A stretch of DNA of 64,000 bases from positions 1 through 64,000 of the forward strand of contig MEDY01000016.1 of NCBI GenBank assembly GCA_001724265.1, written 5' to 3'. A model generated the notes under the pieces. That model worked only from the letters and a program-made list of their open reading frames with translations. It was not told the DNA's origin and ran no database searches. This DNA is from Rhizaria sp. SCN 62-66. Its lineage: Eukaryota. The position numbers were made by a program, and so were the translations under genes. This document shows positions 3,197 to 51,127 of the stretch, piece after piece; position 1 is the stretch's first letter, and each line of letters opens with the position of its first letter.

Positions 3197-4669
3197 ATGT
3201 CTGTCTCATTCAACTTTCTCTCATTTCATGAGGCTGTGGCTGACTTAACGTCACTCTCACCGTCACTCGCTGGAGTGCAGAAGCTAGCCGAACACACAAA
3301 AGATTACACAGCGTCACAGTCACAGGCTCTCATTGCAGAATGTCTCGACTACGGTGTCATTGACTGGCTCGTACAGTCATTCCAATACTGTCAGGATGAG
3401 GTCGCACACGAACGCACATTGGCAACGCTCCATGTGTTGAATAACGTGTCCAGAACGTGCTCTGATGTCCTGCTTGAGCCTGGTGTCATCGAAGTCATCT
3501 GCGACTTACTCTATCTCGGTCAGCACGATGTGATTGCTTGTGAAGCAATGCTGACGCTAAACATCTCGGAATCCATCCGCTACACCGTTTTTGACGCACT
3601 AGCCAAGCGCGGCGCATTAATCTATCTATGCGACTACGTGGCCGAGGTCTATACTAACTTTACCACTGTTAACTCTGAGGTGATCACGATCGCTGCAAAA
3701 ACCATGTACGGATTTGCATACCAGAAACACCGCATCAAATCAAAACACGATGCTATTTTACCTACGCTGACTTCACTTCTTGCGTTTGCGCTGCGTCACT
3801 TTCACTCAGTTCCCAATCTTGAAGCAGCACTGAGGACGACTTGTGATTCAGTGTTTTGGATGTACTGTCCAGGCTGCCCGGATAACAAATTTTTCGAAGC
3901 TTTTATTGCCGGCGGTGATCACAGCCTATTTCACAGTGCGCTTGAGTTACTACGGATTGACAGCGCATCCTTTGCGAGCCTTCGACTACGGGGTCTGTGC
4001 GAATCTGTTTCTAACTATGATGGTGACAAGCCCATGCGCGCATTTACAGTGTCAACAATGGTTTATCTGAAGCGTATTGCAGAATCAAGGGAGTATCTTA
4101 GCTCTTTATTGTTCGAAGATATTACTACAGCGCTATTGAATCTGACAAACAAAGGATCAGTCATGGTTTCGCGCATATTTGAGTCGAATGTGCTACAAGC
4201 TGTCGTTAAGCGTCTGGAAATGAAGCTGCGGAATGAAACATCCTGGTACTTTTTCAACACGCCGAGCGAGAATCTAATTATGGTAATCATCAACATGCTA
4301 AAGACGTCCCCAGCAAATGATGCCAATCAGTCACGGTTTTTTGTAGCGCTGACACTGCTTGAGTATGGTGCCCTGCGTTTTTGCACACAAGTACTTGGTG
4401 CTGCTGTTGCGGATACCCATACGTCATCGTTACGGCCACTTGTAGTGTGCGAGGCAGTGCGACTTATGATCTAGTCAGGGGATACGAGCCCTGATCTAGT
4501 CGTACTGGTTGAAGATGTTGAACCGCGCAACGTGTTCCTGGCAGATTTCTTTGCAGCGGGTGGTAGGGACATACTAGTAAACTTGACTCGACGTAACATG
4601 ACGTCCAATTATGTGTTTATGCTTCACAAGCTGGTGGTGTCCATTGTGGGTGACATCACGAAGAAATGA
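3197..4669 (+). CDS. Intronless armadillo/importin-alpha-like helical repeat protein with one in-frame TAG at 4472-4474 (~490 aa if read through)
   Basis: ARM-like segments (GVIDWLVQ, PGVIEVICDLL, GALIYLC, ALLNLT, SNVLQAVV, YGALRFC). The frame stays open for 64 codons after the TAG, to TGA 4667-4669. That extension (NVFLADFFAAGGRDILVNL) resembles the last importin-alpha ARM repeat. Confidence 0.65.
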
Positions 4670-5087
4670 ATAGTTGTCGTGTGGTCGAAGTGCAAATGCT
4701 GTTAAGCTGAACAACATTATAATGAGAGTGCATAAAAAAGACTCGTAATTGGCCGAAATATGTGCGGTTTGCTTGGCATATATGTATTATTCACATTTTT
4801 ACATGTACTGTACGTACATATGTACGTACGTGTAGGTATAATCAAGTGAAAGAAGCAACATGAGATGGAGAAAGTGTTTTTTAATCGTAATTGGCCTTGT
4901 ATCTCTCACAAATAGACATAATATACCAGTTTATATCATAATCACGATTTTAAATAAACACAACGTGACCAGAAAGTAACAAAAATGAAGAAAAGGCAAA
5001 TCACTGTTGTCCCAACCAACTTTGTTACTCACAGCCATTTGCTAATGAATCAAGGTGGGTTCACACAGCTTTGTTCATTGACTAAAC

Positions 5088-5811: not shown

Positions 5812-6443
5812 TTAGAGCTTGGCCTGGGTCTTCCATGTGGGGACGGCCTTGGTGAGGGCCTCGACGTACTTGACCTTAGCATCATCCTTGGACATCCTGC
5901 CGCGAAAAGGGCGCACAGCGACGCGCGGTTGAAGAGCACATCAGGCGAGACAGCAAACAGAAAGAAGCAGTAGAAAATGCGTCGGAAAGTGGAAATGGAA
6001 GAGAGTTTTTAGTGAGATGATGAGTGACATAAAGAGAAATAAGGGTTAAATAAATGGTCAAATATGCGGCGTAGTTATAAACGAGTCGATTTTCTCGCAA
6101 ACAAGTTATATATGTGGTTTAAAAGTTGCTTTAGCTAGACGTACTGCTTGAGGTCGGCCCAAGCCTTCCACTTGGAGTACTCGATGATACGCAGACGAGA
6201 GGGAGCCTTCTCATTGCAGGGACCATCGGTGGCCTGCTTAAAGAGCGAGTAGAAGGCAAGCTTCACATCGTTGGACAGCTTGATCCCCGAAGAGGCTACA
6301 GCGTACAGGTATACAAAGTGGAAGGATCCGAAATGAGTTGAGGGCAGCTCGTGTCGGAAAGTGAATAGAAGGGAATTGACTGAAAAGGATAGGGACTTAC
6401 CTTGAACGAACTTAACACCAGCTTCAAAGTCGGCGGCGCTCAT
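5812..6443 (-). CDS. ACBP: Acyl-CoA-binding protein (ACBP), 3 exons: 6443-6401, 6295-6145, 5896-5812 (92 aa), with C-terminal AKL
   Basis: Spliced product MSAADFEAGVKFVQASSGIKLSNDVKLAFYSLFKQATDGPC..KWKAWADLKQMSKDDAKVKYVEALTKAVPTWKTQAKL* carries the ACBP signatures YxLFKQAT and KWxAW. Ends TAA. Confidence 0.95.
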
Positions 6444-8762: not shown

Positions 8763-11048
8763 ATGGAGCAGTCTTCGGGCTCAGCGCGTGACGAATATTC
8801 GTGCTGTGAAAGCAGCCTTCATCAGACGCTCACTGATCTTGCCCGCACAGCCTCGCGGACATCAATCGTTGCTGCTGCGGCTGCTTCTACAACGGCGTCA
8901 GTTACTTCTCCTGCAACCGCTGGCGCGCCTTCGCCGCCACATTGCACAGTTTCGCTTGCTTCCGGGGCCGGGGGAGTTTGCGATGCGAGTCTCGCGTTAC
9001 TGAGTCCCTCGACGCACACCATGCACGCGTTTCAAGTTGGCAATCGCACAAGCGCGGGCAAAAGTGCTGTTAACAGCACGTTTCACGGCGTGGCTCCCTC
9101 AGCACTTGATGTATTGCCCCCATGTTGCCCTATCATTCGTACTCAAGAGTGGACAGCGCTGGTGCAGCAAGCACACGACGCATCTCTCGAGCGCTATGCA
9201 CCAGTGGCCAACTCCAGCAACAGCAACAGCAACGCAGGAAGCAAAGATGGCACCAATTACTTGCGTGTTCCTAGCGCTCGCGGGCGCGGCTTTACAGTGA
9301 CTGCAGGGGAGAGCAACAGTGACGCCCCTGTGCCGAGCGTTGACACCGGCGTCCCGACTCCGCGCAGCGGCAGTGCGGCGACCACGCCCATGTGCGCAAC
9401 GCCACTTAGCGTGCACGAGGGCGGACCGCTCACGCAACTCGCCGGCACGGGTCCCTGCGTGCTGTATACTGACATCCCGTTCATCAGCCGCATGTTTAAG
9501 GTCTTCGGACACGTCGCAGTTACCAACTCAGACAGGACGCGCATCTACGAGTTGCGCGCTTGGTACGCACACATGCTCTTTGCAAATCGATATCAATTAA
9601 AACTAGCTAGCAAAACTGCAATTAAAACTACCTCTTACACTCTCATATTCATTTGTATTGCGCTTTATTTCAGGCCTTGCTTGGCATCGAATAACTCTGT
9701 CTGGGTGATGGAAGGCGACACGCCGTACGCCAAACGCGCACGCGCACGCAAGCAACGCGCACGCGTTGTTGCTGACGCAAACAACAACGTCGCCACCGTC
9801 GACAACAACCCCGACAGCGTGAGCTATGACAGCACTAACAACGCTCACAGCAGCGTCGGTGCGAGTCACAGTAGCAGCAACAGCAACGATGACATCATCA
9901 CTAGCCGCCGCAACGCTGGCGAGAGTGGCAGAAATCGCGGTCTGAACAGCCTTGCCACAGGCCTTAGTGGCGCCTTCAGCTTTAAGCCTATCCTCTTTGG
10001 CCGGCCCAGCAAGTGCCTACCGCTTGGCGTGCCCCCCTCTTTGTACGCGGAATACGACGCGGCACTAGAGGAAGAGCTAGAGCTGTGGCAGCAGCGCATG
10101 CACTTTGGCCTCCGCAGCAACTGCCACACGTTTATCTGCGACGCGCTTAACAACATGCACCGCCGGGCGGGTGGCGAGGGCGCACCCTACACGATGATAA
10201 AGCTCGGCCTTGCCGTGTACACGAGCTCGATCGAAGTCAGGCCGCGCACGCAGCGGAACATCGCCGCCGCGGTGACGCACGACGCGGGCAAGGCGTTGCG
10301 CTCGCTGGTCGAGAGCATTGTCGGGCTGCGGCAGGAGCTGCAAAGCGCGGCGCGGCGGCAGCTGAACCGAATCCCATCGCAGTCGTACGTGCCGTGGCCG
10401 GTCAGCGCTATGGCAGCGCCAGTGCTGCGGCTGTACTACGGTCTTGCGGCGTCGCCCACAGTAAGAAACAGCAGCAATAGCAACAACGTCAGCAGCAGCG
10501 GAGGCAGCGATCTGGTTGGTGGCTAGGCCTTACTGCCTGCAAGTGCGAGCGTCAGCGCGAGCAACGCTGTTGTTTCAAACTTGCTGCTGGGGATTGACTG
10601 TGAGCAGAAGAAGAGTGAGCCGACAGACAAGCTCGTTAGCAGTGATGATGCAGGACGCGTTGTGCGCTTTTCGATGTGCGTCGAGTGTCTGTCCGCAAAC
10701 CCAAGTGCTGAGTGCAGTCCTCTGTCTTCAAATACTCGCGCAAGCAGCGGCTGCGACGCGGGGGAAGAGGTTGAAGAATGTTATAGCAGTACAATTTCTG
10801 TGAGCCACAATAACGGCGTCGCAACTCAGACTGTCATTTGCACCAGCTGTGGTACGGCTGACGCAGCGATGCATTCTCAGTTATTAAGCACTAGTGTCCA
10901 GAGCGGCGAGGACTGTGTTGACACGCACAAGCCTGCGAACGAGACTAACAGCTCGAACACAAGTGTGGTTGTGGGCGCTGATGATGGAGAGGTTGGGGGG
11001 AAGCTCGCGCCTGCCCCCGGTCTTCGGTGGCTTTGGGGCTGGTTTTGA
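8763..11048 (+). CDS. TMEM222/RTE1-like (DUF778) protein with low-complexity extensions; intron 9563-9673; in-frame TAG at 10524-10526 (~724 aa if read through)
   Basis: Motifs PCVLYTDIPFISRMFKVFGHVAV, ILFGRPSK and YDAALEEE...RMH...NCHTFICDALN fit the family. The intron is AT-rich, 111 nt, GTACGC..CAG. The frame continues 173 codons past the TAG to TGA, after which the sequence turns AT-rich. Confidence 0.75.
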
Positions 11049-11484: not shown

Positions 11485-15260
<3,776 letters not shown>

Positions 15261-30217: not shown

Positions 30218-30692
30218 TATGCCTGTGACTTGACAAGACTCTGTGCAAACACGGGAAGAAAGAAACATTGTTGTGACCAAAGTCGTTATTCCACAAGCAA
30301 AGAGACATGTGTGTTTGAGCCCAAGATCATCACCTCAACAGCTATAAATTAAATAAATAAAGCAAAATATCACTTAAATATATATACCCTAGCACCACTT
30401 TGGTTAACGGATGTTTAGCCTCCTTTTGTGGTCGTTTTTATCAACGTCTTCGAACACATTAGAGCCAGCCGTTAGCAGGTCACGAAAAGTCACATGTCCC
30501 GAATTTATATAAAATCGCGTCCATAGCTTTACAACAAGCATATTCACCGTTAAAAATGCGTAAAATAATATTTTGTGTATTGTGAATACTCATGACAGAG
30601 CTTTCTGGCCCTCCATACACTGTTTCAGACCAGATCAAACATCGAACTCTTGCTTGCTTTGATCACTCACTCGTCAGCTCTCATAACCAGAC

Positions 30693-35737: not shown

Positions 35738-38700
35738 ATGCTCGCGCGTTCAGGCTCCGCTGCACTCCAGCGGCACCTTGTTCGCGTGGCCGCCGATGCG
35801 CGCCTGATCGCGACAACATCCTCTCCGTCTGAGCCCAGCTTATCAATCACCACATCCAGTTCTGTTACGTCAAAATCTGATGTATACAGTGCGAAAACCG
35901 CCTCTACACGCCCGCTATACGGTCCCACTCTCCCTGACGCAACTTCCTCGACCTTAACGACCACCGCCAGCTCCGGCTCTATCGCAGGTGGAGCCGCCAC
36001 AACCACCGCTGCTGCTGAAGCTTGCCGTGCACACGCCCACATTGCTGCCACTTGTGCTGCCTCTGCGTCTGCCTCGTTTTCCGTCGCTGTGCCCGCCCGC
36101 AGCTTCTCAGCCTCCTCATCCTCATCTGCCGGCAACGACAAGATCAACGGCACTGCCAAGAAGAGTCACAGCAACGGCCGCAGCAACGGCCGCAGCAACG
36201 CAGCTGCCTCTGCGACCTCTGAGCACAACGCTACTTGGCCGCGCAAGCCGCAGAAGCCCGCCGCTGATCTTAACGTCATCGCAGACTCTGCCTATAATGC
36301 TGGCGCTGACGCTGGGTCGAGTTTCACTCGCGGCAACAAAAGTCGCGCGAATAATAATCGCGTTAACAATAATAACAATACCAATAACAACAAGAATAAT
36401 AGCGCGAATGCTGTTCGCATTGAGAGGACCCGCAACTCCAACTTCGCCTCGACTGCCGCCGCTGCCGCGGCCGCCGCGGCCGCCGCTGCGCCGAGTGTCA
36501 GCGCGAGTGTGGGTGTGAGCGAGAGCCAGTGGAGCATCCCATCGGAGCGCGTGCCCTCGCGCACGCAGGCGACAATTGCCAAGGCGTGGCTCGAAGCGTG
36601 GAGCACCCTCGACGACGTCAACGCGTTCAAGCACCGGACGCACCTGTCGCACGCTGCGCAGAACTCCGCGCACAGTAGCGGCCACGGCGACGCGCTCGCG
36701 CAGGCTCCGTCTCACGCTGCGGCGCAGATTGCGGCCGCCGTGGCCATGGGCGAGCCATCGCCGTTGGACGCTGTGGCGACGCTGCTGGTCGAGTATCTGC
36801 AACAGCTAGACGAGCTCACCCGCGCCGCCCGCGCCGACCCGGCCGCGCACGCCGCCGCCGCGCACACAGGCGTCGTTGCCAGCGCGGTTTCCTGCGTGCT
36901 GAGCAGCGAGAGGCTGGAGGAGCTGATGCGCGCCGCGGTGCGCCACGGCCAGTACGGGCTTGCGTGGCGCGTGTTCCAGCTCCACGGCAACCCGCTGTCG
37001 CTGCGCACGCACGCCGCCGCAAACCCGGCCGCCGCCGCGCTTGTCGCCGCGCGCGACGCGCGCTCCCTCATCCCCGCCAGTGCGAGCAATAGCAATATCA
37101 ATATCATGAGCAATGCTAGCGTGAGCGGCGTGCAGGTTCACAGCGGCCATCTCAGCCTGGGATCGTCCGTGGTGACGGCCAGCAGCAGCGCCGTGGCGGC
37201 CGCGGGCGACGTGGTGAGCGGTGACGGCGACGACGACAGCGTGTGCGCGCTGCACGTGCCGTACGCGGCCGTGGCGCCCCCGCTGACGGCGCAGGAGGAG
37301 CGCGCCGCCGCCGCCCGCGGGTGGGGGCTCGCGCGCGACAGGGAGCGCGATCGTGCGCTGCACCAGAAGTCGCACTACTACCTCAGCCAGCAGCAGAAGC
37401 AGCTTGACTCCGGCTCCGGCGGGCGGCACGAGCATGACCCGTCGTCGGCGGCGTCGGCGTCGGCGTCACCGCGCGGACAGGACCTCTCCGACTCGCCGCT
37501 AGCGGGGCTCGACGCCGTCCTCAGCACCGTGGCCGCCAACGCCGCCGCCCGGGCCGCCGCGCGCGAGGCCAGCGCAGACGCGATCCCCGACGGGAGCGCC
37601 AAGCCGGCGCCACTGGCTGCCGCGTCTGGCGCAGCGCCTAAGAGTCTGGGCGAAAGCGCGGTGTGGAGCGACATCGCGGCGCTGCTCAGCGAGCCCCCTG
37701 TCGCGAGCGCCGCCAGCGCCGCCCCGCTCCACGCCGCGAGAGTCCACGCGCCCCACGCGCCTCACGGGGCGCACAGGCTCGGGCTCGGCCACGGGTCCGG
37801 GCAGCGGTACGAGGACGACCTGCTGGCGGACGCGGACGACGAGTACTACAACGACGGGCACACGGACTACGACACCGAGATCGAAGCCGGACTGGAGACA
37901 GACGACGGTGGCTCCTACAATAGCGCCGCGGCCGAGGGCTACTTGGGCGCCGACGGGTTCGGCGACGCACAGGACGTTGTACAGTCCGCGGGCGGCAAGC
38001 AGGCCAAGACGCGCACCAAGGCCCGCGGCACGCAGCCCCTCTCGCGCACGCAGCAGCGCTCTCAGGCCTACGCCGCCGCCGCCGCCGCGACCCGCACGCG
38101 CGCCCGCGCGTCCGCGTCGGCGGCGCACGTGGCCGTGTCGGAGCTGTCGGACGCTGTGGACCCGCTTGTGTCGCTCACCAGCACGGCCCACGCGCGCGCC
38201 ATAGCCGCGCTCGCGTACACCGCAGACGCGCCAGGCAGCGGCAGTGACGCCGACGGCGTGAACGCGGTCAACCGCGCGATTGCGGCGTCGCTGCCCGCGC
38301 CGCCGCTACCGACGGTGGGGGCATACCACGCCGCGCTCTTCTGCGCCGCCATGCTCGCGCGGCCCGACCTCGCGCTGGCCGTCACGCGCAGCATGGGCAG
38401 GCACTCAGCACTGACACTGCGGCTCTCGCCCGGGGCCGGCTCCGGGGACCTGGACAGCACCGGCCACGGTCAGGACCACGGCCACGGCCACGGCCACGTT
38501 CGCGGCGGCAGCGACTCAGTCTTCACAAGCAACCCCGGCAGCGACTATACCCCCGTGACGCCGGCGTCGTCGTCGGCGCTGGCGGCGAGCGTGGGCGTGG
38601 GCGGAGAAAAGTGGGAGCTGGGCGACCTGGTCGTCACCAGCGGCAAGCAAGTCTCGCTTGCCGCGCGCGGCGGCCTCACCGGGCTCAAGACGGCCTGGCC

Positions 38701-41700
38701 CGCCATCGAGAGCGCCATCGCGCACATCAAGGAAGCCGCGCACGCCGCCGCCGCGCAGTGCGCCGCGTAGTCAGCCGCCATCAGCACGGCCTACGGGGCC
38801 CACTTCGCCGCCTCACGCGGCCAGTCACGGGCGCAGTTGCAGGCCAAGTCGGCGCACGCGAGCGTGAGCGAGCTGCTGCGGCTGCCGGCCTTCACGCCGT
38901 CCGTCGCGCCCCGCGGTGCCGCCTTCGCGCTGGCGCTACTGTCGGCGCGCGCGGCCGCGGATCCTGAGGCGACGCTGCGTGCGCTGCAGCAGCTGTGCAG
39001 CTCGCACTCGACGACGGGCCGCTTCCTCGCCTCGCAGCGCATGTTCGGCATGGCCGTGCAAAACGTGGTGCTGGCCGACGCGTGGCCATTGCTGCCGCAG
39101 GTGCTGGAGCTCATGACGCAGCGCCGCACGCACCCCAACAAGGTGATGTTGACTGCGCTTATGTCCACCTCGCTGCAGCGCCGTGCGCCGCTGCAGGCGC
39201 TGGCCGCGTTCGACACCTTCTTCGTGCCGCCCAGCCAGCGCATGGAGCGCGTCATGGAGGCGCTGCGCCACGACGGGCGCGACCGTGCGATGCTGCAGGC
39301 GGCCGCAGGCGCACTGCAGTGGGCCGGCGTCGACCCGCTGACCGGCGAGGGCATCCTGCCCGGGACCGACCCCGCCACGGCGGCCGCGGCGGCCGCGGTG
39401 GGGAAGCTGCTGCGCGAGAGCGTCGAAGGCGAGCGAGCCGCCGGGTGGTTTGAGGATGCCGCTAACGGCAGTCTGGCGCAGCCGGTGATGGAGATGGTCG
39501 AGCGCATCCAGGACGCCGTCGCCATCAGCAACGAAATCAACAGTAAGAGTGGGCACAAGAGCGGTAGCAAGAGCAGCAGCAACGCCAACGACGGCGGCCC
39601 AAATGCTCGCATCGAGTCCCCCAACGCGCACATCAACGCTGGCGCGAGCGGCGGCAGCAGCGACACCCACAGTGCCGGCAACTCTAGCAACGACCTCGAG
39701 GAGCTGCTCACGGTCACCACCGACTCTGCCCCGTTCACGCAGCTCGGCGCGCGCCTGATGCCGCAGCTGCTGAGCGCCGTGCGCACCTTCTACGCCGTGG
39801 CGCGGCCCTCGCTGCTCTCCGCAGTGGCGGGCGTGACGACCGCGGTGCCCGAGCAGCGGCTCGAGAGCGAGTGGGCCGCGCTCGTGTCGGCCGTGCACCG
39901 CGGCTGCGCAGTCGCCGCCGCGCGGACCGACTTGGCCGCGCAGCTGCAGCAGCACCACCAGCAGCGCGCGCAGCTCTCGCAGCGGCATCGGGAGTGGCGC
40001 CGGGCCTAGGGCGACGCCGCCGGTGCCGCCGACGCAGACGCTGAGGCCGATGGCGAGGGCGAGGGCGAGTTCGACGACGAGGACTACTACGCGGCCCACG
40101 CGGCCACGACCCCGCGAGGCGTGATGACAGGCGAGGGGCCGGGCGGGCTCTGGGGCCCCACGGCGCTGCTCCCGTCGCTGTCCGTCACAGGCGGCAGCGC
40201 TCCCGCTAAGAACAACGACAACGACACTGCGAGTGCTCTTGACGGCGCCGCGAGCGGCGTGACGACCGTGGTCGCAATCCCCAGTCCCGTGGGCGAGAGC
40301 ATGGGCGCGACGAGCGCCATTGCGGCCGCCGTCGCGGGCACGGGGCGCTTCGACGAACTCGCGCGCGCCGAGAACCGCGCGTACCCCGTCGCGGACCCCG
40401 CGCCCGTTACCGACACGGACCTGCTCGAGCTCGCGGCCGCCTCGGGCGCGGGCTCTGGCCTCGATGCCGGCAGTGGCGGCGGCGGCGCGGGCGGCGAGAT
40501 CGACATCGGGCGCATGCTGGGGTCGCTCAAGACTGACTCGATGGGCGCGCTGCTGTGGGGTGCCGAGGCCGAGGGGCTCGCCGCGCCTTCACCGGCGGTC
40601 ACGGCCGCTGCAGACAGCGACGGAAGGAGTAAGAGCAGGAACGGAGCTGAGGTTGTCGATGGGATCGCGCGCGCACGCGAGTCTCGCGCGGCCTCTGTTG
40701 CCGTCGCGGTGGCGCATGCCACGGCAACCGCCGCCGCGCCCACCGCGGCCGGCCTGCGCAGCGAGAGCGAGCATGGCGGCAACTCGACCGCGACGATAGA
40801 GAACTTTCCCTCGTCGTCCTATAACGCAACTGCAGACTTTAACTCTGGTAACGACTCTGCTGCCGTTGCTGATGTCGATTTTGACCTGATGCCGTGCCAC
40901 ATCGACCCTGAGACGGGCGCGTCGATGCCGTGGCCGCCGCTGCCCACGTCCGCGCCCGCGGCCTCGCTGCCCTGGGCGAGCTCGGTCCTCGCGGCCGAGC
41001 GCGAGCGCGCACTCGAAGTGGACACGCACCCTATCCTGCTCGGCATCCAGCGCGCGCAGTCGGGCGAGTTCCCGCTCAATGTGTTCCTGCCCACAGCCTT
41101 CACGCTGCGCTGCGCCATCCGCGGCTGCCGCGACAACACCGCCGCGCCACTGTGGCGCGAGGCGCTGGTGCTGCTCGACCTCATGTTCCGCCTCGGCATG
41201 CCGCTGGACCCACACGCCGTAACGCTCACGGTGCAGACCTGCGCGCACGCGGACCGCGAGGCCGAGGTTGTGGCGCTCGTCAAGATGCTGCTGCAGTCAC
41301 AGGTGCCGCTGCGCGTGTCGTTCGCGGCCGATCTGGCCGTGTTCTTTGCGCGCCGCGGGTCCAACTCAACTCTGTTGTGGGACGTGCTACTCTGGACGCT
41401 GCAGTCGCCGGCCCCGCGCGACTCGGACGGGCCACGTCGGCTGGACTCGGCGTTCCTTAACAACCTCGTCAAGACGTTTGTGCTCGAAGGATACCCGATG
41501 CGTGCGGCCGCGTTCCTGCTCGCCGTGCTGCGCGTGTCGCCCAAGACGCTGTCGCTGTACTCCGCGCTCACACACGCGGCGGCCCAGGCGCTGCCGCGGC
41601 TCGACGACGTGGCCGCGATCATCCTCCGCACGCAGGAGCAGCGGTACAGCCGCGAGTTCACCACTGCGGCGGGATCGGCCGTGAGCCGCGGCGGCGACGG

Positions 41701-43897
41701 CGGCGTCGTGCTGTCCAACGTGCTGCTGCCGCTGGGGCCCGGCATCGCGACGCGGTCAGCGTACCCGGCACGCGGCCACTTCGCGCCGCTGTCAGTCGAG
41801 GCGCTGATCCCATCCTGGCGCCTCGTCATGATGGGGCTCGCGCTGTACCACCAGCCTAGCGGGCTGCGCCTTGTCGTACAGCTCTGGGCGCGGCGCCAGC
41901 TCGTCCCGCTCACGCACACGTTGGGATACCTGGACCACTTGGCGCTGCTCATCGCCGTTGCGCGCTACGGCTCAAGCCGCCGCATGCTGCTCGCCATGGC
42001 CAGCGCGCGCCCCAACGGCCGCTCGCTGCGTATTGTGCCGCGCCCGATGCGCACTGCGCGTGTCGACGAGGTCCCCGGCCGCGCGCCGTCGCCCGGCGTA
42101 GATGTGATCCACAACGGCACCATGCCCAAGATGTACATGCACTTGCTTGCCGCAGAGACGCTGGCGCGGTTCCTTGTTAACGTTGACGTGCCGATGCACA
42201 ACAACCCGTATGAGGACACGCTGCGGTTCATCGCACGCGACGCCGAGCTCGCGTTTGCTGACGTCCTGCCTCATAGTGGCAGCATGACTGCGCACAGTGA
42301 CAACAACGATAATGCGGATTGCACTGATGACGTGAGCGTTCACCTTGACGCAAACTCTCTCATCGACTCAGCCTCTGCGACTCAGTCGCAGTCGCGCGTG
42401 TCGATGACGACTCTGATCGCCAAGGCGCACCGCATGTCCTCCGAGAGCCTGCCACCGATGACGCCAGAGACTATGCGCGCCACCGCCGACGCCGATGTGC
42501 TGCGCGCGGAGCTCGCGGTTTCCGACTCCGTCTCTAACGCCGCCAACACCACCAGTGAGAATAATAGCAGCAGCGTGGTAACGACGACCGCTGCGGTCGA
42601 CTATGACATCCCGCACGTCGAGGCGCTGTGGCCCTACATCCGCTTCGTTGCCAGCTCCTCGCGCTTTCCCCCGTCGAAGCAGCAGCTCATCACACTCGCA
42701 GATCAGCTGTGGGACCTCATGGTGGCGCGGTTTCAGGTCAAGTCCTCGCTCACGGTCTTCTCGCTCAATCAGCTAGTGCTTGCCGCCGGGCCCTCCACCG
42801 CGGCCGCGGCCCAGCTCGTCACGGACGCGAGCGACAGCAACAGCGGCAGCCTCGTCACCGGCATGGCGCCCCTGCGCGTGCGCGACGGCACGCTGCCGCT
42901 CTTCTCTGCGGTGCGTTTCGCGCGCATGAACCACAGCGACTACCGCGAGCGGTACCCTGTCGCGGCTGCGCGCGCGGACGCCGTGGTGCGCGCGCTGCCC
43001 ACATGCGCCCTGACACCCTCTCTGTGGTCAACGCACTACAGCCAGCACACTCCCGACGAGGACCCGATGCTGGCGCGCACGCTCTCCGTCGCGGGCAAGC
43101 ACACGCTGTTCGACAAGAACCCCAACGGGCACGGCAGCATTGCTGCCAACCCGGCCGCGGCCGTCGCGTCGGTGGGCTATGTCACGCCCGAACTTGACGC
43201 CGCGCCCGCGACGGGCCTCGTGATCCCGCGCACGGCTGTGGACGTGCTCTCGCGCGCTCTGCGCGAACCTGCGGGCGCGGATGCGCTGCTACAGTGCTCC
43301 GACGCCGCACTCGCCGACGCCGGGTTTACGGGCCGCGGCGTCAACACGGGCACGGAGACGCACATGATCGTGGTGGACCTGCGTAACCACTCCTTCGCCA
43401 CGGGCACGCTCGCGCTGCGCCGCGCGCTCAGGGAGCTCATCGACTGGGGCTGCGTGCGGGCGCGCGCCGCGCAGGAGGCCGCCACGCCGCACTCTGCCGC
43501 GCGCGGGAGCGCCAAGCGCGAGAGCGCCGCCACTGCCAAGAGCAGCACGGCAGGGGGCAAGACGCCGCCCGGCCCGACTGCGAGCCCCCAGCTGCCGGGC
43601 TCGCTGATGATCCTGGCCTACTCGCACTACAGCCGCGCGCCGCACACCGTCACGACGCGGCTCATGACCGCGTTTGATCTGCCCGCGGTACTCATGCGTC
43701 TCGGGTTCCCGCGCGCGTACCTTTCGTCGCCTATCTCTGTCGACGCAGCGTTGGCACCCGAGGGCGCCGAAGGCGGGCCTGCGGCCGCCGTGGTGATCCC
43801 TGCTGCTGCATTGAACCAGTGGTTGTACTGTGCGATCCAGCCGCACCAGACGGCACTGCCTGCGCTCGCGCAGGACTTGAAGAACCACTTTGCCTAA
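35738..43897 (+). CDS. Giant PPR-like protein with a putative organellar (mitochondrial) presequence and possible C-terminal SMR domain; in-frame TAGs at 38768-38770 and 40007-40009 (~2719 aa if read through)
   Basis: Three same-frame ORFs are separated only by TAGs. PPR-like helices occur in all three segments: YHAALFCAAMLARPDLALAVTRSM; VLELMTQRRTHPNKVMLTALMS; WREALVLLDLMFRLGMPLDPHAVTLTVQTC. C-terminal VVDLRNHSFATGTLALRRAL resembles the start of an SMR domain. Ends TAA followed by an abrupt AT-rich spacer. Confidence 0.65.
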
Positions 43898-44293
43898 ACG
43901 AATGTGGACTTAAACAATATTTAATATCACTATTTATAAAAGAATGTATCACTAGTAATCATCAAACATCTAGAAATCAAACTTAAACGATATTATTATT
44001 TATTTAACATTGTCTGTAATACAAATATCACGCAACTGTTGTTAGATTTATCGGTCCTATTCACTCCAGCTTTGCGGCGTTACACGTGGCGAGTGTGCAC
44101 GACCAAAGCAATTTTGAATGACTTATATCGATTTGGAACTACCGTTAAAGCGCCTTTGAGCATATTAACTCACATCAAGAGCACATTCAATATTTTGAAA
44201 AACATTAAACTCACTCTCTTGGAACTTCGGAACAACTTGAAATTGTGGCGCAGCAAGTAAAAGCTGTGGCACAGCTGTTGAAGTGCCACCACC

Positions 44294-47200
44294 ATGGAGC
44301 TTTTCGATGGATTAAAGCACCACACACTTCTGAGTGTGCGCTTACGCAACAACCAACTTGAGCTTTTAATCTCGCCTCCAAAGCGGGCGTATAGGTTCGT
44401 CTTCATTTATTCACTTTAAGTCGCACACCCTTGCAATCAACTGCACCAGATCATCACCAGTCTCAGCTTGCTCTCTCTCTTTCTTGTCGCCAAACGTCGT
44501 CTTTTTAGTCACGCTCTTGATGAGCACCGCGCTGATTGGGAGCCGTGTGACTCTTTGACAATCCATCCGTACCGCCCGAATGAATCACCCGATCTGCGCC
44601 TCGTAGACAATCGCATTCTGCGTTCGTTTCTACTCACGTGGCTCAACGCTTTCGGCACATCTGCCGCAACAGGCCTCCAACTCACACGCGTTGCACCATT
44701 TCCTATCTCACGCCATGCGGGCCCTGTAGATAGCTCTTGCGAGACGCCCCAGTCAGTCGTCGGTGCACCGGTCTATGCGCGCTGTGGGCTCAGTCCTGGT
44801 TCAGCGGCGTTCATCGGGGCGCTCTCTGCAACAAACTCAATGACTGCGGCAAATCACAACAATAGCATTCACACCAGTGTGCTCAACCACGTTTCCGCCA
44901 TCAGTGCGGCTGCAGCTGCGGCGCTCAACGGAGCTGTGCTCGGCTCGGTCCCTGGCAGCTTTGTGACTAACATTACGAGCAGTGATGAGTACTTCAGCGA
45001 CACTGCTGCTGGTGTTGAGAGTGGTGTTCACAGCTCAGGTAGTTACGGTGTTTCTAGCAGCAACGGTATCAGCAGTGGTAGCGGCAGTGATACGCCTCTA
45101 AGCGGCTTCCATGGAGCCCGCAGTGGCTCTGCGTCATTTCTGCTTGCACCGCGAGAGGCACTGCTGCGCGTGTGGCGACAGTGTGTGTTCCCCCTGAGCT
45201 TTATGTTGCACAAGGAGCGCGCACGCAGTATCGCGTTGCAACAACACGTCGATAGTCTTCTTGACATTGACGCACAGCAACAGCTGCTGCAGCAGCAGCG
45301 TGGACAGCAGACTTCTCAACAAAGGAACCACGGTGGCGGCAATGTAACGAGTACTCAGTGTCCGATAGCGCGCGCCAAAGCAGCTAATGAGCTCTCTCCA
45401 ATGGTACCGTTGCCATTGAGCAACGGCTCTGCAGAAGCTTCTACTAAAAACACCCACAATAATCACAAGACAAACATGATCCACAATGTTGGCAAGTTTC
45501 ACCTTCGCCCGTCACCCCCAACCGCGCTGCTGCCACCGCCGCTGCTTGCCCCAGCGTCGCCATCATGCAGCAGCGTGCTCGCTACACCACTTGTGGTTAC
45601 ACAGCGGCGCAGGCCTGGTCGGCATTTACGCGCGCCGACGCAGGTCGCCGTTACAGTGGCAACGCCGCTGGGAACTGAGACCACGGAAACGCCGCAATCG
45701 CGCGCGGCGACAGAGACGCACGCGGCAGAAGTGCGCCAGCGCGAGGAAAGAGTCACAAATGCTCGCGCTCGCGTTAGAGTAAGCGCAGGACTACACGAGA
45801 ACTACAACACCACTGCTAACGCTTCCTCCGTGAAGACCTTGCTCGCTGACTGCGAAACTTATGCTGCCGATTGTGAGCGTAAAGTTAGCGTATGTACGTC
45901 CGTCACTCACCTCACAGCTTTAGACTTTAAAGGAGAGAAAGAATATGTCGGCAAGCTGACAACAACTGCACTGATAGCAAGAAACCTGCTGCCAGCATTG
46001 CCAGGCCAGACTCCGCGCATAATCAATGTAGCATCTTCGAATGATGTGAACAACAAGTACACCGCTGCAGTACTGAACAGTAGCAACGAGTTTAACATCA
46101 GTGATGACAGCAGCGTTTGCGTTGATGGGGCTGCTATTGAAGCGACGCCACTTGCCTTTGCTGTCACCGGCTACAAAGACAAGTCCGTGTCCCCAGCCTC
46201 AGACGCAGAAACAATGCTCTCCGCCGCAACTGAAGCCACGCCGCGCGCTTATAAATTGACATCAGTGCAGGCGCCTACGCCTGCAACTGTGGCTCCGCAT
46301 AGACGAACGCTAACCTGTCTTGACGTTGCTAGCTTAATGTTGGTTGCAAACAACATCAACGACCACTGCGACGGAAATATTAAAACAGACGCAAATACTG
46401 CAAAAGTGGAACCAACTGCCCACAAATGCAGTGAAGACCCAGTCATCTCCTCCTCAGCTCGCACACTAACTGCTAATCCCGTATCAGCAAGTAGCAGTTG
46501 CCAGCACGTGCCTCGATTGCCGGCACGCAGGCTATCAGCAGCGAGCTCCACAGTTGATACCATTGCTGATGTGACAGCTCCTAGCACAAATCGCGCTGCT
46601 GCAGGGCTGCATACGCCCGGTTCTTTGCTGTGCACTGTGAGTGATGCGCCATCTAACTGCGTAAACGAGGTCTACGTCAACTCTAACGCAGCAGTGACTG
46701 ATATTCACGGGAGCGCCACTCCCGCAAACGCACGCGTAAAGGCGGAGAATAGCGCTGGTAGAGATGGCATGAGCGGGAGCCTTGCACCTTTGACGTTAGC
46801 GCGTCAAGGGAGCCTTCCCGCGCGCCCGCCAACAGTCCCATTGCCGGCCCTACCAACAGACACCACGCAGCTGCGCCCAGCCTTACTGCACCATACACAG
46901 CCTAAGTCTCAGATACAGTTACAGCCTCAGTCGCAACTAGTACAGTCAGCAATTCGCATTGTAGAGTATGATGGTGCGGCGCTGGTAACTGAAGCACGGC
47001 TTCGCAGCGCGGTAGCGGCGCAACGTGCTCTTGCACCCGTAACTATTAATCTTGCGGGTAGTGACCTCGCCGCTGCAAACGCTGCTTTTGAAGAGGAAGG
47101 CAAAGTTGCGCTCGCATCACGACTTCAACGCGCTCACTTCAACAGCAAGCAGGCAAGTACCGGTGACACTGGAGAAGTCGACCACAGTAAGAAATGCGGT

Positions 47201-50200
47201 GATAGTGAGCATAGCACCGGTTGTGAAAACGACGGGAGCGAAGCCAGGGATAACTCATACTTGCACCAGTATCTATTATCAGTTGCAGTTGCGACAGAAG
47301 AAAAGAGAGAGAGTGCAACATTGCTGCCATATACAACTGCTCTTCAAAACCTTAGCAGTCACAGTGGCGACGTGCACGCTGCTAATGCCCCTATAAGTGA
47401 GTATTTAGCACGGCGAATCAGCCAAGCTGCCGCTGGTGCTACTTTCACAGGTAATATGTCGTCTGCAGGCACTGAATCAAAGCAATCGTTAAAGTTAATG
47501 CATGTTTGTGCCAATTCTCGCGCATCATCAACTGACGCTGCGCCAGTTACTCGACCAAAATGTGATCTTCCCCCTTTGCCTATGCCAACCGTGCTTGCTT
47601 TTTCCAGTAGCGGGAAGCAAAGGCATCGACACAGCTATAGCCACAGTTACAGCAATAGCTCGAACAACGCGCTTCAGACATCAATAGTCATTCCCAGCGC
47701 CGCTGAAAATATTAGCCGTTCATTGTTAGCAAGACGTATTGACAACAACCACAGTCACAGTCAGAATACATCGCCGGCAAGCGTTAGCAGCGACTCCTCG
47801 GTTGTTAACAACAACCGCGACAGCTGCAGAATAGTTGCCGCAAATGAATGTCTTCCTGTCACAAACAGCAATGAAGTGCTTCCCAACAGCAGCAGCCGGG
47901 AAACACGCCGGCGCGGTACTCTTACAAGAAAGCTATTTAAGCATCAACTGCTTTATCATGGCGGACTGCAGGCGTACTGTCACGAGAGTGATGATGAGAA
48001 CAACACACAAGGAGATTTTGAGGAGCCGCCGTCCTCTGCCTCTCCTGTTGTTGCTGCAGCGGTCGCAGATGCAGATGCTAGTGCTGCGACAATTTCCGCA
48101 GGCGCGCACTCGTTTGATACATCATTTGTTGACTTGTTTAACACAACTCGCACTTCAAACCACAACACTCTTAGTGATCGAAACAATCGGGCATTATCTA
48201 GCGCTGCGATTGCGTTTGTGCCAACGGTTGCCACTAGTGCCACAGTCGTCCCTAGTGGTGCAATTACACTGTCACCTAAGTCTGTTGCGGCAAGTAGCAC
48301 GTGGGAACAAGAGATATTTGTGCGCGTGCGCCCAGGATGCTATCTTGCTGTGCGCTCGGGTGGGGCATACGACATGCCTGCCAGCAACACAAGCACTAAC
48401 ATAAACGGTGACCATGTTGAAGATACGAATGTAAGTGATACTACGTTCCCAAGTACACTATTGATTAATGACAGCGCGCGTAGTGAGCAGCCGCAAGATG
48501 CTGAGCTTGCAGGTACCAGTGTGTCACAAAGCGCTGTGCAAGCAGGCTCTGTCATAGCACAGAGTTTAAGATCTGAGCTTACCGCGGGCGACGTAAGTGA
48601 TGCATGGGAAAAGGCCAAGAAAGCATGCAACTACAATAGCAACGGCTCTGGCTCACTGCCATCAACACCAAGTGTTGAGCCGCTTTCTGAGAGCGACTGT
48701 GGAAACAACATGTCCAGCGATAATGAAGACAAACGTAGTAACGGGAACAGCGGGCTTTTGATAACCGACGACAGCAGCGCCTTAGCTCGGACCACTGCCG
48801 CGGATACCAATGCTGTGGCATCAGAGAAGAGTGTAAGCTGCAATGATAGTGATGACGAGAACAAATCTTGTGTCAACAATTATGTGCTCAAGCACGGTCT
48901 TGACAGCACAACTAGTGGCATTAGCAGCAAATTTAGTAGCTTCTGCGACACGAGTGAAGGATCGTCGAATAACGTTACTGCGCTGCTGCAAACATTCACC
49001 TCAGCAATGCTTAATACCCTGCTGCCAGCGCCTGGTGGTGATAGCAGCGGCAGCGACAATGATAGTCCCCAGCAGAGTCCGACCGTCAGCGTAAACTCTA
49101 GACGCCATAACGACCGTCAAGCTACTGTAGCGGAGTCTGTTTCTAAAAGTGGCATGACAAGTCTTGATCTTAACCTTGGCAGTAGTGACATAACTAACGC
49201 ACAGAGCATTAACGAAGCTTCTTTCAGTAACAGCCACAGACCAAGCAGTATTCCGGCGGGCGCAGTCGCTGTGCTAAGTGACTGTGTCCGCACAGTCACC
49301 ACGGCCATCTCACTTGAGCTTGTCGGTGATAGCACGGATCAGTCGCGCAGCAGCGCAACCGCTCACACAAGCAACAATACCGGCACGAACGTACATGAGC
49401 CGCAATGCGTGTTTGGTTTAGCGTTGCGGACTGATATCTTGCGCGCTCACACAATTACTAGCAGCAGCGCTGATAGTGCGAGTCACTGTACCACCCAAAC
49501 TCCGCCAGCGCCTGTTGCGTCTGTGGACGCAGATCACCGTCACACCACGATTCCGCTATCACTCTCGGTCACGCCTCCAGTTGCAGCATTTACCCTACAT
49601 GAACAGCAGCCAGAACATAAACAGGAGCAAGAGCCAGCCGTGGATATGAGTCAAACGCAGCAGACGTCTGTTTACGACGGTGACACTAACAATAACGCGT
49701 TTCCCGCAGAGCCCTGGCGCGTCTTAGCGCTTGCTAATGTCTTGTCTCCGCCAGCCAATGCTGCCGTTACAGCGGCGGCAACCGCAACACTTGTGCAACA
49801 CCGTCAGCAACGGTTACAACAGCAGCAGCACCATGGCGGAGATAGCAGTGATGGAACTAGTGACGGTGTGTTGTTTGGTAGCAGCGACAACAGCAGTGTC
49901 GCTGGTGACGGCGATGACAAACGTGCGCGCAATCGTCATAGTGTATGGTGCGAGTATAACGCAAACAACAGCGCAAGCGTCACATATGATAACAACGACA
50001 AGTGCGTCAATCCTGACTGCGCTGCGTATCATGACAATGGTGGTGACTATGAAGACTACGACAGTCTGCACACAAGCGACGAGTTCGACGCTCCCGACAC
50101 CGCGGAGCTCAACCTAACACCCGGCGGTGGGCAAGGCCCTGGTCGACTCTATCCAGACGCGTTCCGCACTACGTTTGCTCCGGTTGCAACGCCGGACATG

Positions 50201-51127
50201 CGCGCAGTGGCAACAACGTACAACGGAGGCGAAGACTCTCCCGCTTTGAACACCAAAACTACATCAGAGTTTCATAACAAGACGCTGCTCAGCGCAAGTG
50301 GCGTTGCTTTTGTTGAGGCCAAAAAAGCTGAAAATATTACTGCCCTTAATAATGATAAGAATGTTGTTTATGGCGCTTTAAACAGCGCTACGTCGCATTT
50401 GCGCAAAACTATTGCGAACGCTGCTGCGCTGCCACCCTCTGCTGCTGTTCACAGTCAGCGACTGTTTATGGGTGCAACTGTTGCGCCAATAGGATCATCA
50501 GCGGCAGTAACTGGGCCAGATGTTGCGCTGCTTCCCTTAATTCCCACGTTTGGCTTTGGTGCCCCTGTCACTGCTCAAAGCAGTGACAGAAACATTGTGT
50601 ATGCCAAAAACTCCGCCATTCATAGCACCACGACGGAATCGCAAACAACAGCGAGCGTGGCCACTAACACCCTGAACAGTACAACGTTTGAGTTCGAGCT
50701 TGTATCCGCTGCGCATTCCTCTGCTCAGAGTCAGTCAAACAAAAACAGCAGTGTTGATGCTCTCACAAACGAGAGCACAAACATCAACGCAGCTAGGACT
50801 GTCGAGCCGGTAGCAGCACACTCAGCTGTTACAGTGCGTGATTCTCCTGGCTCTAGCAGCAATAGCATTGCTGCGCGACAAGAGCTATAGTCAGAGCAGC
50901 GACAGCAGCACAGTCATGCGCAAGGCTGGGCTGCTGGTGTTGGCCAAAGCTGGCGCGAGTGGGGCCGCGGGGGCTGGGACGCGCTGCGTCGGGCCGCTGT
51001 CGCGGTTGGCGGCGGAAGTAAACCTGCTTTGAAGCAACAAGATCTCGTAGAGGATGATGAAGACTGCTACTAGTGCGGGTCTAAGGAAGACATGAAAAGT
51101 GGCGACGGCGAGTGCAGTGAAAAATGA
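44294..51127 (+). CDS. Very large Ser/Asn/Thr/Ala-rich protein, possibly with a split PH domain; probable intron 44395-44460; in-frame TAGs at 50888-50890 and 51071-51073 (~2255 aa)
   Basis: A 6.4-kb open frame with ATG 44294 in the context gccaccaccATGG. A 66-nt GTTCGT..CAG intron removes an in-frame TAA and keeps the frame. Coding-like sequence continues through two TAGs to TGA 51125-51127. Confidence 0.6.

What the first reader, a model, noticed from the sequence alone, without database searches (positions are those of the whole stretch)
3197..51127. Probable non-standard nuclear genetic code: UAG is read as sense while UAA and UGA remain stops
Seen: seven in-frame TAGs interrupt five genes (+4472, +10524, -29524, +38768, +40007, +50888, +51071). 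After each, the same frame continues with unchanged GC-rich coding character, from 17 to over 1000 codons. After TAA/TGA ends the DNA usually turns AT-rich at once. The 12 genes without an internal TAG all end in TAA or TGA, and so do the 5 read-through genes (11 TGA, 6 TAA, 0 TAG overall). No internal in-frame TAA/TGA and no frameshift is needed in any model, which argues against ordinary pseudogene decay. Known: nuclear codes almost always reassign UAA and UAG together. UAG-only reassignment is reported from few lineages (Leu in an uncultured rhizarian, Gln in the fornicate Iotanema, some ciliates). Inferred: this organism has such a code. TAG is rare, 7 in roughly 16-17 thousand codons, and absent from the most conserved genes. 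The residue is undetermined: one site aligns to a polar position of importin-alpha (weakly favouring Gln), but Leu or Trp also read plausibly. A-to-I editing of UAG to Trp is an alternative mechanism.
Basis: partly seen in the sequence, partly recalled or inferred. Interest (0 to 1): 0.95.

Follow-up and report, generated by a model that had tools for sequence, protein, structure and literature searches.

The report
Probable UAG sense codon, uncultured eukaryote
In this stretch of an uncultured wastewater eukaryote, the stop codon TAG sits inside genes that clearly keep coding in the same frame, so the organism most likely reads TAG as an amino acid, a rare kind of genetic-code change that still needs genome-wide proof.

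Summary
At five of them (4472, 10524, 29524, 38768, 40007) the same frame is coding on both sides by codon-usage score and GC3 periodicity. The last two (50888, 51071) are ambiguous. In 14,197 codons of intron-free models there are 7 in-frame TAG, 0 TAA and 0 TGA. All 20 gene models end in TGA (14) or TAA (6). Contigs of another run carry four of the TAGs unchanged, and polyA-RNA contigs lie on all three TAG-separated parts of the 2,731-codon gene.

Several TAG-ended ORFs (DHX16, ACBP) simply run into introns. None of the seven TAGs can be removed by such an intron.

Random nonsense mutation would give TAG only 52-66% of the time, and no frameshift is seen, so decay is unlikely. The best reading is that UAG is decoded as sense and UAA/UGA are the stops.

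Still missing are a tRNA(CUA), eRF1, ortholog alignments (the TAG-bearing proteins are orphans) and RNA across the sites. The amino acid is unknown, with a faint hint of Gln. The lineage is unplaced. Three of the seven TAGs share the context TAGTCAG, which is unexplained.

The parts
3197..4669 (+). Gene P0001 (490 codons, orphan helical protein) with an in-frame TAG at 4472-4474; ends in TGA at 4667-4669
   Evidence: X426. The 64 codons after the TAG score LLR 0.157 per codon in frame against -0.30 and -0.41 off frame; same-length chunks of the gene give 0.196 +/- 0.037. GC drops to 0.36 only after the TGA. The database holds it cut at the TAG, as the 425-aa P0006.
8763..11048 (+). Gene P0002 (761 codons, RTE1-like domain at residues 429-483) with an in-frame TAG at 10524-10526; ends in TGA
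   Evidence: The 173 codons after the TAG score 0.193 in frame against -0.05 and -0.32 off frame; typical 0.219 +/- 0.052. The flank after the TGA scores negative in all frames.
23675..30268 (-). Gene P0003 (2197 codons, Ala/Ser-rich orphan) with an in-frame TAG at 29524-29522; ends in TGA
   Evidence: X249. The 248 codons upstream of the TAG score 0.216 in frame against -0.14 and -0.40 off frame. GC3 is about 0.87 just downstream. The printed translation shows no Met for several hundred codons after the TAG, so translation has to come from upstream.
35702..43897 (+). Gene P0004 (2731 codons, orphan) with in-frame TAGs at 38768-38770 and 40007-40009; ends in TAA. This is the strongest case.
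   Evidence: GC at third codon positions stays at 0.84-0.96 in the same phase from 37568 to 40756, without a break at either TAG, and at 0.69-0.93 on to 41356. LLR is 0.219 (412 codons) and 0.194 (1295 codons) in frame against about -0.4 off frame. X2/X3 contigs 37135-39694 and 39810-45003 have 0 differences. PolyA-RNA contigs of X5 lie on all three parts. The databases hold only the split pieces P0007 (381 aa) and P0008 (1257 aa).
44840..51127 (+). Gene P0005 (2095 codons, orphan) with TAGs at 50888-50890 and 51071-51073 near its end; next stop is TGA at 51125-51127. These are the weak cases.
   Evidence: LLR after the TAGs is only 0.012 (60 codons) and 0.014 (17 codons), against 0.19-0.21 typical. 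GC stays high (0.69 in the 90 nt after 50888) until the TGA, then falls to 0.31. X2/X3 contig 48818-51199 has 0 differences.
12196..12360 (-). Control: AT-rich intron of the DHX16 gene (GTACGT...CGCAG, 165 nt, GC 0.36) that holds a TAG at 12290-12288
   Evidence: The Paulinella DHX16 (P0015) aligns on both sides and gaps over this stretch.
11677..11828 (-). Control: last DHX16 intron (GTAGGC...TCGTAG, 152 nt). It holds the TGA at 11789-11787 that the ORF list shows as a gene end. The true stop is TGA at 11487-11485.
5897..6144 (-). Control: second intron of the ACBP gene; the TAG at 6137-6135 lies 7 nt inside it. The gene ends in TAA at 5814-5812.
   Evidence: Three exons (6443-6401, 6295-6145, 5896-5812) join in frame into a 92-codon ACBP.

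Best explanation
The window comes from an uncultured, GC-rich, intron-bearing eukaryote known only from bioreactor and wastewater metagenomes. In its nuclear genes UAG is not a terminator. Ribosomes pass it and insert an amino acid, and only UAA and UGA end translation.

The most likely mechanism (inferred, not shown) is a stop-to-sense reassignment of UAG alone. That would need a tRNA able to read UAG, either a cognate CUA anticodon or a strengthened near-cognate, and an eRF1 that recognises UAG poorly.

The codon is rare: 7 of 14,197 codons, about 13 times rarer than the TAG triplet is off frame. In this window it sits only in fast-evolving, low-complexity proteins without known relatives. 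That fits a young or inefficiently decoded sense codon.

The amino acid is not determined. The only hint, a weak one, points to glutamine.

Shown: the TAGs are real in two runs, and coding continues in frame. Inferred: that they are translated, and how.
For: 1. Frame continuity. In P0004 the GC3 phase signal runs unbroken at 0.84-0.96 across 38768 and 40007. The gene-trained codon LLR is positive only in the same frame after or before five TAGs: 0.157, 0.193, 0.216, 0.219 and 0.194 per codon, within about 1 SD of the gene's own chunks for three and 2.7-2.9 SD lower for the two P0004 parts. The other frames score from -0.05 to -0.47.

2. True 3' flanks look different. In the 60 codons after 8 TAA/TGA ends there are 2-10 in-frame stops each (36 TAA/TGA and 7 TAG in 480 codons). 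LLR in the gene's frame is negative for all 8, from -0.55 to -0.13; two of the 8 have a slightly positive value in another frame. After the TAGs there is no TAA/TGA for 64 to 1948 codons.

3. In-frame TAG 7, TAA 0, TGA 0 in 14,197 codons, against 290 and 559 stop triplets in the other two sense frames.

4. 0 of 20 gene models end in TAG (14 TGA, 6 TAA). Every other TAG-ended coding ORF runs into an intron shown by homology.

5. Not introns. Within 900 nt upstream, no GTANGY donor exists for four TAGs, and for the other three only donors that would shift the frame. The flanks are GC 0.52-0.78, against 0.34-0.40 in real introns.

6. Not an error of one assembly. Contigs of X2/X3 cover 38768, 40007, 50888 and 51071 with 0 differences.

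7. PolyA-RNA contigs (X5) lie on all three parts of P0004.

8. UAG-only nuclear reassignments are an established phenomenon (PMC5304391, abstract and section 6 read; PMC11687900, passages).
Against: No tRNA was found in the window (ARAGORN 0; Rfam 0). No genome is available to look for tRNA(CUA) or eRF1.

No TAG falls at a conserved position. P0001 and P0004 have no relatives at all, and P0003-P0005 have no Pfam domain. The usual proof, TAG aligned to one residue in orthologs, is therefore absent.

The conserved genes of the window (DHX16, PP2C, ACBP, ADAM-like, SET) hold no TAG.

No listed RNA contig bridges a TAG, so its presence in mRNA is not shown.

Nonsense mutation alone would give TAG 52-66% of the time in these genes. 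7 of 7 TAG then has P = 0.01-0.06, and 5 of 5 has P = 0.04-0.13.

The terminal-codon count is small. It is 0 of 15 for genes without an internal TAG, and 0 of 11 with domain support, which is only P about 0.04-0.09 at a 20% TAG share (my arithmetic).

Three of seven TAGs share the context TAGTCAG. A fully reassigned codon should not need a context.

X2 and X3 give identical contigs and may be one data set, and X2 is from the same study as the probable source.
Confidence: 0.58

Rival explanations
1. Context-dependent or leaky readthrough. [quoted passage not shown] The long proteins are then made in part, or the code is ambiguous between stop and sense.
For: Three of seven in-frame TAGs are followed by TCAG, against 0 of 181 off-frame TAGs in the same genes; binomial P = 1.3e-6 before correction for choosing the motif. 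Two more share TAGGGCG. TAG is very rare in frame and absent from conserved genes. The two TAGs at the end of P0005 are followed by weak coding signal and could be real or partial stops.
Against: 0 of 20 gene models end in TAG followed by an ordinary AT-rich flank. Two readthrough events in one 2731-codon gene would leave little full-length product unless readthrough is efficient. The contexts do not match the readthrough motifs I recall (stop-CARYYA, UGA-CUAG); this is recalled, not tested.
Confidence: 0.2
2. Recent nonsense mutations. The five genes are young pseudogenes or carry strain-specific null alleles, and the TAG-only pattern comes from mutation bias in GC-rich codons (CAG, GAG, AAG, TCG, TAC, TGG to TAG).
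For: A single-substitution model on these genes' codon counts gives TAG 52-66% of all nonsense changes. All five genes lack relatives or lie outside their one conserved domain, so constraint may be low.
Against: P(7 of 7 TAG) = 0.01-0.06. No frameshift and no TAA/TGA occurs in 8,274 codons of the five genes, although indels usually disable genes at least as often as nonsense changes (general knowledge). It would mean 5 of 20 genes in one 64-kb stretch are dead. The sequence is unchanged in a run of a later year. P0004 is present in polyA RNA. The absence of terminal TAGs in the other 15 genes would be left unexplained.
Confidence: 0.08
3. RNA editing turns UAG into a sense codon in the transcript (A-to-I giving UGG, or U-to-C giving CAG), so the code itself is standard.
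For: Not excluded. No listed RNA contig covers a TAG site. The X5 RNA contigs differ from the DNA by A>G at 4 places whose positions were not all listed.
Against: The X5 RNA contigs show T>C at 0 places in the 20-kb stretch laid (table 1). None of the 40 listed differences lies at a TAG, but 103 rows were not shown. Site-specific nuclear editing that rescues stops in five unrelated genes has no precedent that I know of (recalled). It would not explain the lack of terminal TAGs.
Confidence: 0.04
4. The TAGs are removed by splicing (GC-rich in-frame introns ending in TAG), or they are sequencing or assembly errors.
For: The genome does have introns, and their 3' ends are often TAG (TGTAG, CGTAG). 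Four of the TAGs are followed by G like a consensus acceptor. Depth is only about 5-8 per contig.
Against: No donor of the type used by the verified introns lies upstream in a position that keeps the frame. Coding signal runs up to each TAG. No RNA joint at the sites appears among those listed. The sequence is identical in another run's contigs. Errors would not fall only in frame and only as TAG.
Confidence: 0.04

Closest known systems
Rhizarian exLh (Sainouroidea): UAG = Leu, UAA and UGA stops (Panek et al. 2017, PMC5304391; abstract and section 6 read)
   Same: Only UAG is found in frame. All true gene ends are UAA or UGA (56 and 15 there; 6 and 14 here). UAG is rarer in highly expressed or conserved genes.
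   Different: There UAG is common: 384 in 71 genes, the top Leu codon in proteasome genes. It aligns to hyperconserved Leu (82 of 86 sites). Here it is 7 in about 14,000 codons and none lies at a conserved site, so the residue is unknown. Kinship is not shown. Two rhizarian DHX16 sequences (Paulinella, Lotharella) are among the best hits at 66-68%, but so are animals, a choanoflagellate and a streptophyte.
Iotanema spirale (Fornicata) and Protocruzia / some phyllopharyngean ciliates: UAG = Gln with UAA kept as stop (PMC5304391 abstract; PMC11687900 passages)
   Same: UAG alone is reassigned. Gln is also the residue faintly hinted at here, because CAG is the codon most often followed by TCA (11 of 367) and TAG is followed by TCA in 3 of 7 cases.
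   Different: Those are AT-rich or anaerobic and ciliate lineages as I recall them (not checked here). This organism has GC-rich genes and ordinary spliceosomal introns. There is no ortholog-based inference here.
Scotinosphaera (green alga): UAG = Ser, UAA stop (named in PMC11687900, passage only)
   Same: UAG-only change in a non-ciliate eukaryote.
   Different: Nothing here points to Ser. No plastid or algal marker is in the window.
Ambiguous stop/sense codes (Condylostoma, karyorelict ciliates, Blastocrithidia UAA; seen in search listings and abstracts) and programmed stop-codon readthrough
   Same: A stop codon is translated inside genes. A possible dependence on context (TAGTCAG in 3 of 7).
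   Different: In those codes the same codon also ends genes. Here no model ends in TAG. Known readthrough usually extends a protein by a short tail once per gene; it does not occur twice inside a 2731-codon ORF.

Membership tests
Nuclear genetic code with UAG as sense and UAA/UGA as the only stops | In-frame UAG inside genes whose coding frame continues on both sides | tested here: met
   Five of seven sites are clear by GC3 phase and codon LLR; two of seven are ambiguous.
Nuclear genetic code with UAG as sense and UAA/UGA as the only stops | UAG is never the terminator at the homologous C-terminus of conserved genes | tested here: inconclusive
   0 of 20 models in the window end in TAG; 11 of them have domain or homology support. 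This is too few genes, and no genome is held.
Nuclear genetic code with UAG as sense and UAA/UGA as the only stops | In-frame UAGs align to one amino acid at conserved positions of orthologs | tested here: inconclusive
   There are no orthologs to align. P0001 finds 1 hit (itself) among 8000 candidates scored. The P0004 region finds 2 hits (its own pieces) in both searches. P0003-P0005 have no Pfam family. The TAG in P0002 lies outside the RTE1 domain.
Nuclear genetic code with UAG as sense and UAA/UGA as the only stops | A tRNA that reads UAG (CUA anticodon), of identifiable isotype | not testable with these tools
   0 tRNA genes in the window and 0 Rfam matches. The rest of the genome could not be reached.
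Nuclear genetic code with UAG as sense and UAA/UGA as the only stops | eRF1 altered in its stop-recognition motifs | not testable with these tools
   eRF1 is not in the window, and no genome is held.
Nuclear genetic code with UAG as sense and UAA/UGA as the only stops | UAG is present in mature transcripts, neither spliced nor edited | tested here: inconclusive
   PolyA-RNA contigs lie on all three parts of P0004, but none of the listed ones bridges a TAG. T>C occurs at 0 places in the RNA run.
Programmed stop-codon readthrough | The same stop codon ends other genes normally, and the readthrough site has a stimulatory context or structure | tested here: inconclusive
   The first part is not met in the window (0 of 20 ends are TAG). 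A shared context, TAGTCAG, exists at 3 of 7 sites. Downstream structure was not tested.
Pseudogenes | A mix of disabling changes (frameshifts, all three stops) and loss of coding signal | tested here: not met
   0 TAA, 0 TGA and no frame change in 8,274 codons of the five genes. The coding signal is kept.

The most novel reading that the evidence does not exclude
This may be a reassignment caught early or halfway. In a free-living, GC-rich, intron-bearing eukaryote outside the ciliates, UAG has stopped ending genes, but it is tolerated only at about 0.05% of codons, in unconstrained proteins, and preferentially in the context UAG-UCA-G. That would be a context-aided or ambiguous intermediate stage of codon capture. 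The inserted residue could even be one not yet reported for nuclear UAG.
Probability: 0.15. Interest if true: 0.85.

Novelty: new member of a known kind. Interest (0 to 1): 0.68.

Why it matters
Nuclear codes in which UAG changes meaning while UAA stays a stop are known from only a handful of lineages. These are a rhizarian, Iotanema, Scotinosphaera and some ciliates (PMC5304391; PMC11687900).

A further case in an abundant but uncultured wastewater eukaryote with GC-rich genes would add an independent example. Because the codon is still very rare there, it could give a view of an early stage of reassignment.

There is also a practical side. Standard-code gene calling has already cut these genes into pieces in public protein collections: 425, 381 and 1257 aa pieces. 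Eukaryotic bins from such metagenomes would therefore be mis-annotated.

My searches of the held library found no paper describing a UAG sense codon in a wastewater or activated-sludge eukaryote. Supplementary files were not seen.

Tried and rejected
Steps that gave nothing:
- Whole genome: none is held.
A 40-base word from the window's end has 0 matches in metagenome contigs and 0 in genome contigs.
- Relatives of the TAG-bearing proteins: none for P0001. None for P0004 residues 824-1636 among shorter proteins. None for 1200 residues of P0004 in 1.84 billion representatives.
- AlphaFold2 of P0001 read through the TAG: mean pLDDT 46, unusable.
- ESM Atlas on the DHX16 exon: family confirmed, no useful taxon.
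- Lineage: the DHX16 exon gives 60-69% identity to hits from many supergroups. A FastTree of 42 chosen hits of the 120 listed, plus the window, places it with three unnamed sequences (P0013, P0011, P0019), so the lineage is unresolved. The window's row also carried about 30 intron-derived residues.
- tRNA and ncRNA: none in the window.
- Run X4: its long contig ends at 50875, 13 nt before the TAG at 50888. This is a part without cover and says nothing.

Readings rejected:
- Trypanosomatid origin, my first impression from the Ala-rich proteins: rejected once introns were found.
- TAG at 6137, 12290, 14255 and 11679 as stops or sense codons: they lie in introns.
- Upstream TAGs at 15559, 23602, 35654 and 58319: they lie before the first ATG of their ORFs and are uninformative.

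Full report
WHAT THE WINDOW IS

The 64-kb window has GC-rich genes separated by AT-rich spacers; GC per 2 kb runs from 0.46 to 0.735. No whole genome is held for it. A search of public runs with 35700-43900 listed 12 runs. Ten hold part of the stretch, four hold half of its words or more, and they come from 6 studies. All are bioreactor, wastewater, activated-sludge or fuel-cell metagenomes, and one is a polyA metatranscriptome. The window is therefore a metagenomic contig of an uncultured organism.

It is a eukaryote with spliceosomal introns. The DHX16/Prp2-type helicase on the minus strand is split into exons (14107-13937, 13652 to about 12361, 12195-11829, 11676-11488). These align to the Paulinella micropora protein P0015 at 48-74% identity. 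The ACBP gene joins in frame from three exons. A saccharopine-dehydrogenase-like gene and a Hop2/TBPIP gene are also interrupted. The verified introns are 99-248 nt long, GC 0.34-0.40, with GTANGY donors and YAG acceptors.

That matters, because four TAG triplets that close coding ORFs (6137, 11679, 12290, 14255) simply lie in introns.

THE OBSERVATION

All seven TAGs are in frame at the stated places. With only TAA/TGA as stops, the five genes read as single ORFs of 490, 761, 2197, 2731 and 2095 codons. In 15 intron-free models (14,197 codons) the coding frame holds 7 TAG, 0 TAA and 0 TGA. The other two sense frames hold 290 and 559 stop triplets.

I count 20 gene models, of which 14 end in TGA, 6 in TAA and none in TAG. 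Four of these models have no domain support and may be exons of neighbouring genes.

IS THE DNA AFTER THE TAGS CODING IN THE SAME FRAME?

For the 2731-codon gene P0004 the answer is plainly yes. GC at the third codon position stays at 0.84-0.96 in one phase from 37568 to 40756, with no break at 38768 or 40007, and at 0.69-0.93 on to 41356.

I also trained a codon table on each gene's part on one side of the TAG and scored the other side.
- P0001 (64 codons): 0.157 per codon.
- P0002 (173 codons): 0.193.
- The 248 codons upstream of the TAG in P0003: 0.216.
- P0004 (412 codons): 0.219.
- P0004 (1295 codons): 0.194.
- The two other frames in each case: between -0.05 and -0.47.

Same-length chunks of the same genes give 0.20-0.31. 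The first three values lie within about 1 SD of their genes' chunks. The two P0004 values are 2.7-2.9 SD lower but still strongly positive.

The two TAGs at the end of P0005 are different. They score 0.012 (60 codons) and 0.014 (17 codons), so they are ambiguous.

Real 3' flanks behave otherwise. The 60 codons after eight TAA/TGA ends hold 2-10 in-frame stops each, and all eight score negative in the gene's frame, from -0.55 to -0.13. Two of them have a slightly positive value in another frame. GC falls to 0.24-0.51 after the final stops of the five genes, but stays at 0.53-0.76 after six of the seven TAGs.

ALTERNATIVES TESTED

Introns. Within 900 nt upstream, four TAGs have no donor of the verified type. 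The other three have only donors that would give intron lengths of 1 mod 3. The flanks are not AT-rich.

Assembly error. Contigs of runs X2 and X3 cover 37135-39694, 39810-45003 and 48818-51199 with 0 differences, so four TAGs are reproduced. X2 and X3 give identical contig tables and may be one data set. X2 shares its study with the probable source.

Expression. PolyA-RNA contigs of X5 lie at 35679-35998, 37323-37769, 39459-39724, 42534-42858 and 43127-43580, which means on all three TAG-separated parts of P0004. None of the listed pieces bridges a TAG, and DNA carry-over in an RNA library cannot be excluded.

Editing. The RNA run shows T>C at 0 places and A>G at 4 places in the 20 kb. Not all positions were listed.

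Decay. From the genes' own codon counts, single substitutions would create TAG in 52-66% of nonsense events. TAG-only therefore has P = 0.01-0.06 for seven sites and 0.04-0.13 for five. That is weaker than it looks at first sight. Decay would also have to spare 8,274 codons from any frameshift, TAA or TGA, and would make a quarter of the genes in the window pseudogenes.

WHAT COULD NOT BE SHOWN

None of the TAG-bearing proteins has a usable relative.
- P0001 finds only its own 425-aa piece.
- P0004 finds only its own 381- and 1257-aa pieces, both in the word-based search and in a full HMMER scan of 1.84 billion representatives.
- P0003-P0005 have no Pfam domain.
- The TAG of P0002 lies 105 residues past its RTE1-like domain.

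The window has no tRNA gene and no Rfam match. The rest of the genome could not be reached. An AlphaFold2 model of P0001 was too poor to use.

AN UNEXPLAINED CONTEXT

Three of the seven TAGs (4472, 38768, 50888) are followed by TCAG. Among 188 TAG triplets on the sense strand of the models, these are the only three so followed. The in-frame rate of TCAG after other codons is 0.33%, giving P = 1.3e-6 before allowing for the post-hoc choice of motif. Two more sites share TAGGGCG.

Among codons one mutation away from TAG, CAG is by far the one most often followed by TCA: 11 of 367, against 0-3 for GAG, AAG, TTG, CTG, TAC, TGG and TCG. This is a faint hint that TAG stands where CAG (Gln) would. 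It may equally mean that decoding is helped by context.

VERDICT

The most likely reading is that UAG is decoded as an amino acid and that UAA and UGA are the only terminators in this organism (0.58). Context-aided or ambiguous readthrough is the main rival (0.20). Nonsense alleles (0.08), editing (0.04), and splicing or error (0.04) follow.

UAG-only nuclear reassignments are known: the rhizarian exLh with Leu, Iotanema with Gln, Scotinosphaera with Ser, and several ciliates (PMC5304391, abstract and section 6 read; PMC11687900, passages). This would therefore be a new member of a known kind.

It is unusual in two respects. The codon is rare (about 0.05% of codons), and the genome is GC-rich and intron-bearing.

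The lineage is unresolved. DHX16 is 60-69% identical to hits from animals, a choanoflagellate, a nucleariid, a streptophyte and two rhizarians. In a quick tree it groups only with unnamed sequences.

Three searches of the held paper library found no report of such a code in a wastewater eukaryote. Supplements were not seen.

Noticed in passing
4472-4478, 38768-38774, 50888-50894 (+): Three of the seven in-frame TAGs share the heptamer TAGTCAG. None of the 181 off-frame TAGs in the same genes does. Two others (29524, 40007) share TAGGGCG. This could be a decoding context or a trace of CAG-TCA ancestry.
   Followed up: partly
4467-4476 and 4492-4501 (+): The 10-mer that spans the TAG of P0001 (TGATCTAGTC) recurs 25 nt downstream, out of frame. 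Meaning unknown.
   Followed up: no
5812-6443 (-), 11485-15260 (-), 740-2428 (+), 7000-8142 (+): There are AT-rich spliceosomal introns (99-248 nt, GTANGY...YAG) in ACBP, DHX16, a saccharopine-dehydrogenase-like gene and Hop2/TBPIP. Most other genes of the window look intron-free.
   Followed up: yes
whole window: Neighbouring genes differ strongly in GC3, from 0.50 (P0001, P0005) and 0.54 (ACBP ORF) to 0.85-0.92 (P0004, PP2C, EF-hand, ADAM-like, SET). One X2 contig (39810-45003) spans a high-GC3 and a low-GC3 gene, so this is not a chimera.
   Followed up: partly
31288-32566: Run X4 holds a contig 93.5% identical to the EF-hand gene (83 differences and 2 gaps in 1279 nt). Of the 38 listed differences, 29 fall on third codon positions. 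A diverged relative or paralogue under purifying selection therefore exists and could serve for comparison at the TAG sites.
   Followed up: no
51549-53774 (-): An ADAM-like protein: a reprolysin (M12B) metalloprotease domain followed by a disintegrin domain. The ORF 53800-54684 ends only 25 nt upstream and may be its first exon.
   Followed up: no
10527-11045 (+) and 51050-51124 (+): The extension of P0002 past its TAG carries two CxxC pairs (zinc-ribbon-like). The last TAG of P0005 sits inside a C-Y-X-C motif.
   Followed up: no
15559, 23602, 35654, 58319: Further TAGs lie in frame just upstream of the first ATG of four ORFs when only TAA/TGA count as stops. They are probably in 5' leaders, so they were not counted.
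   Followed up: partly
They look like one data set filed twice and are not independent of each other.
   Followed up: no
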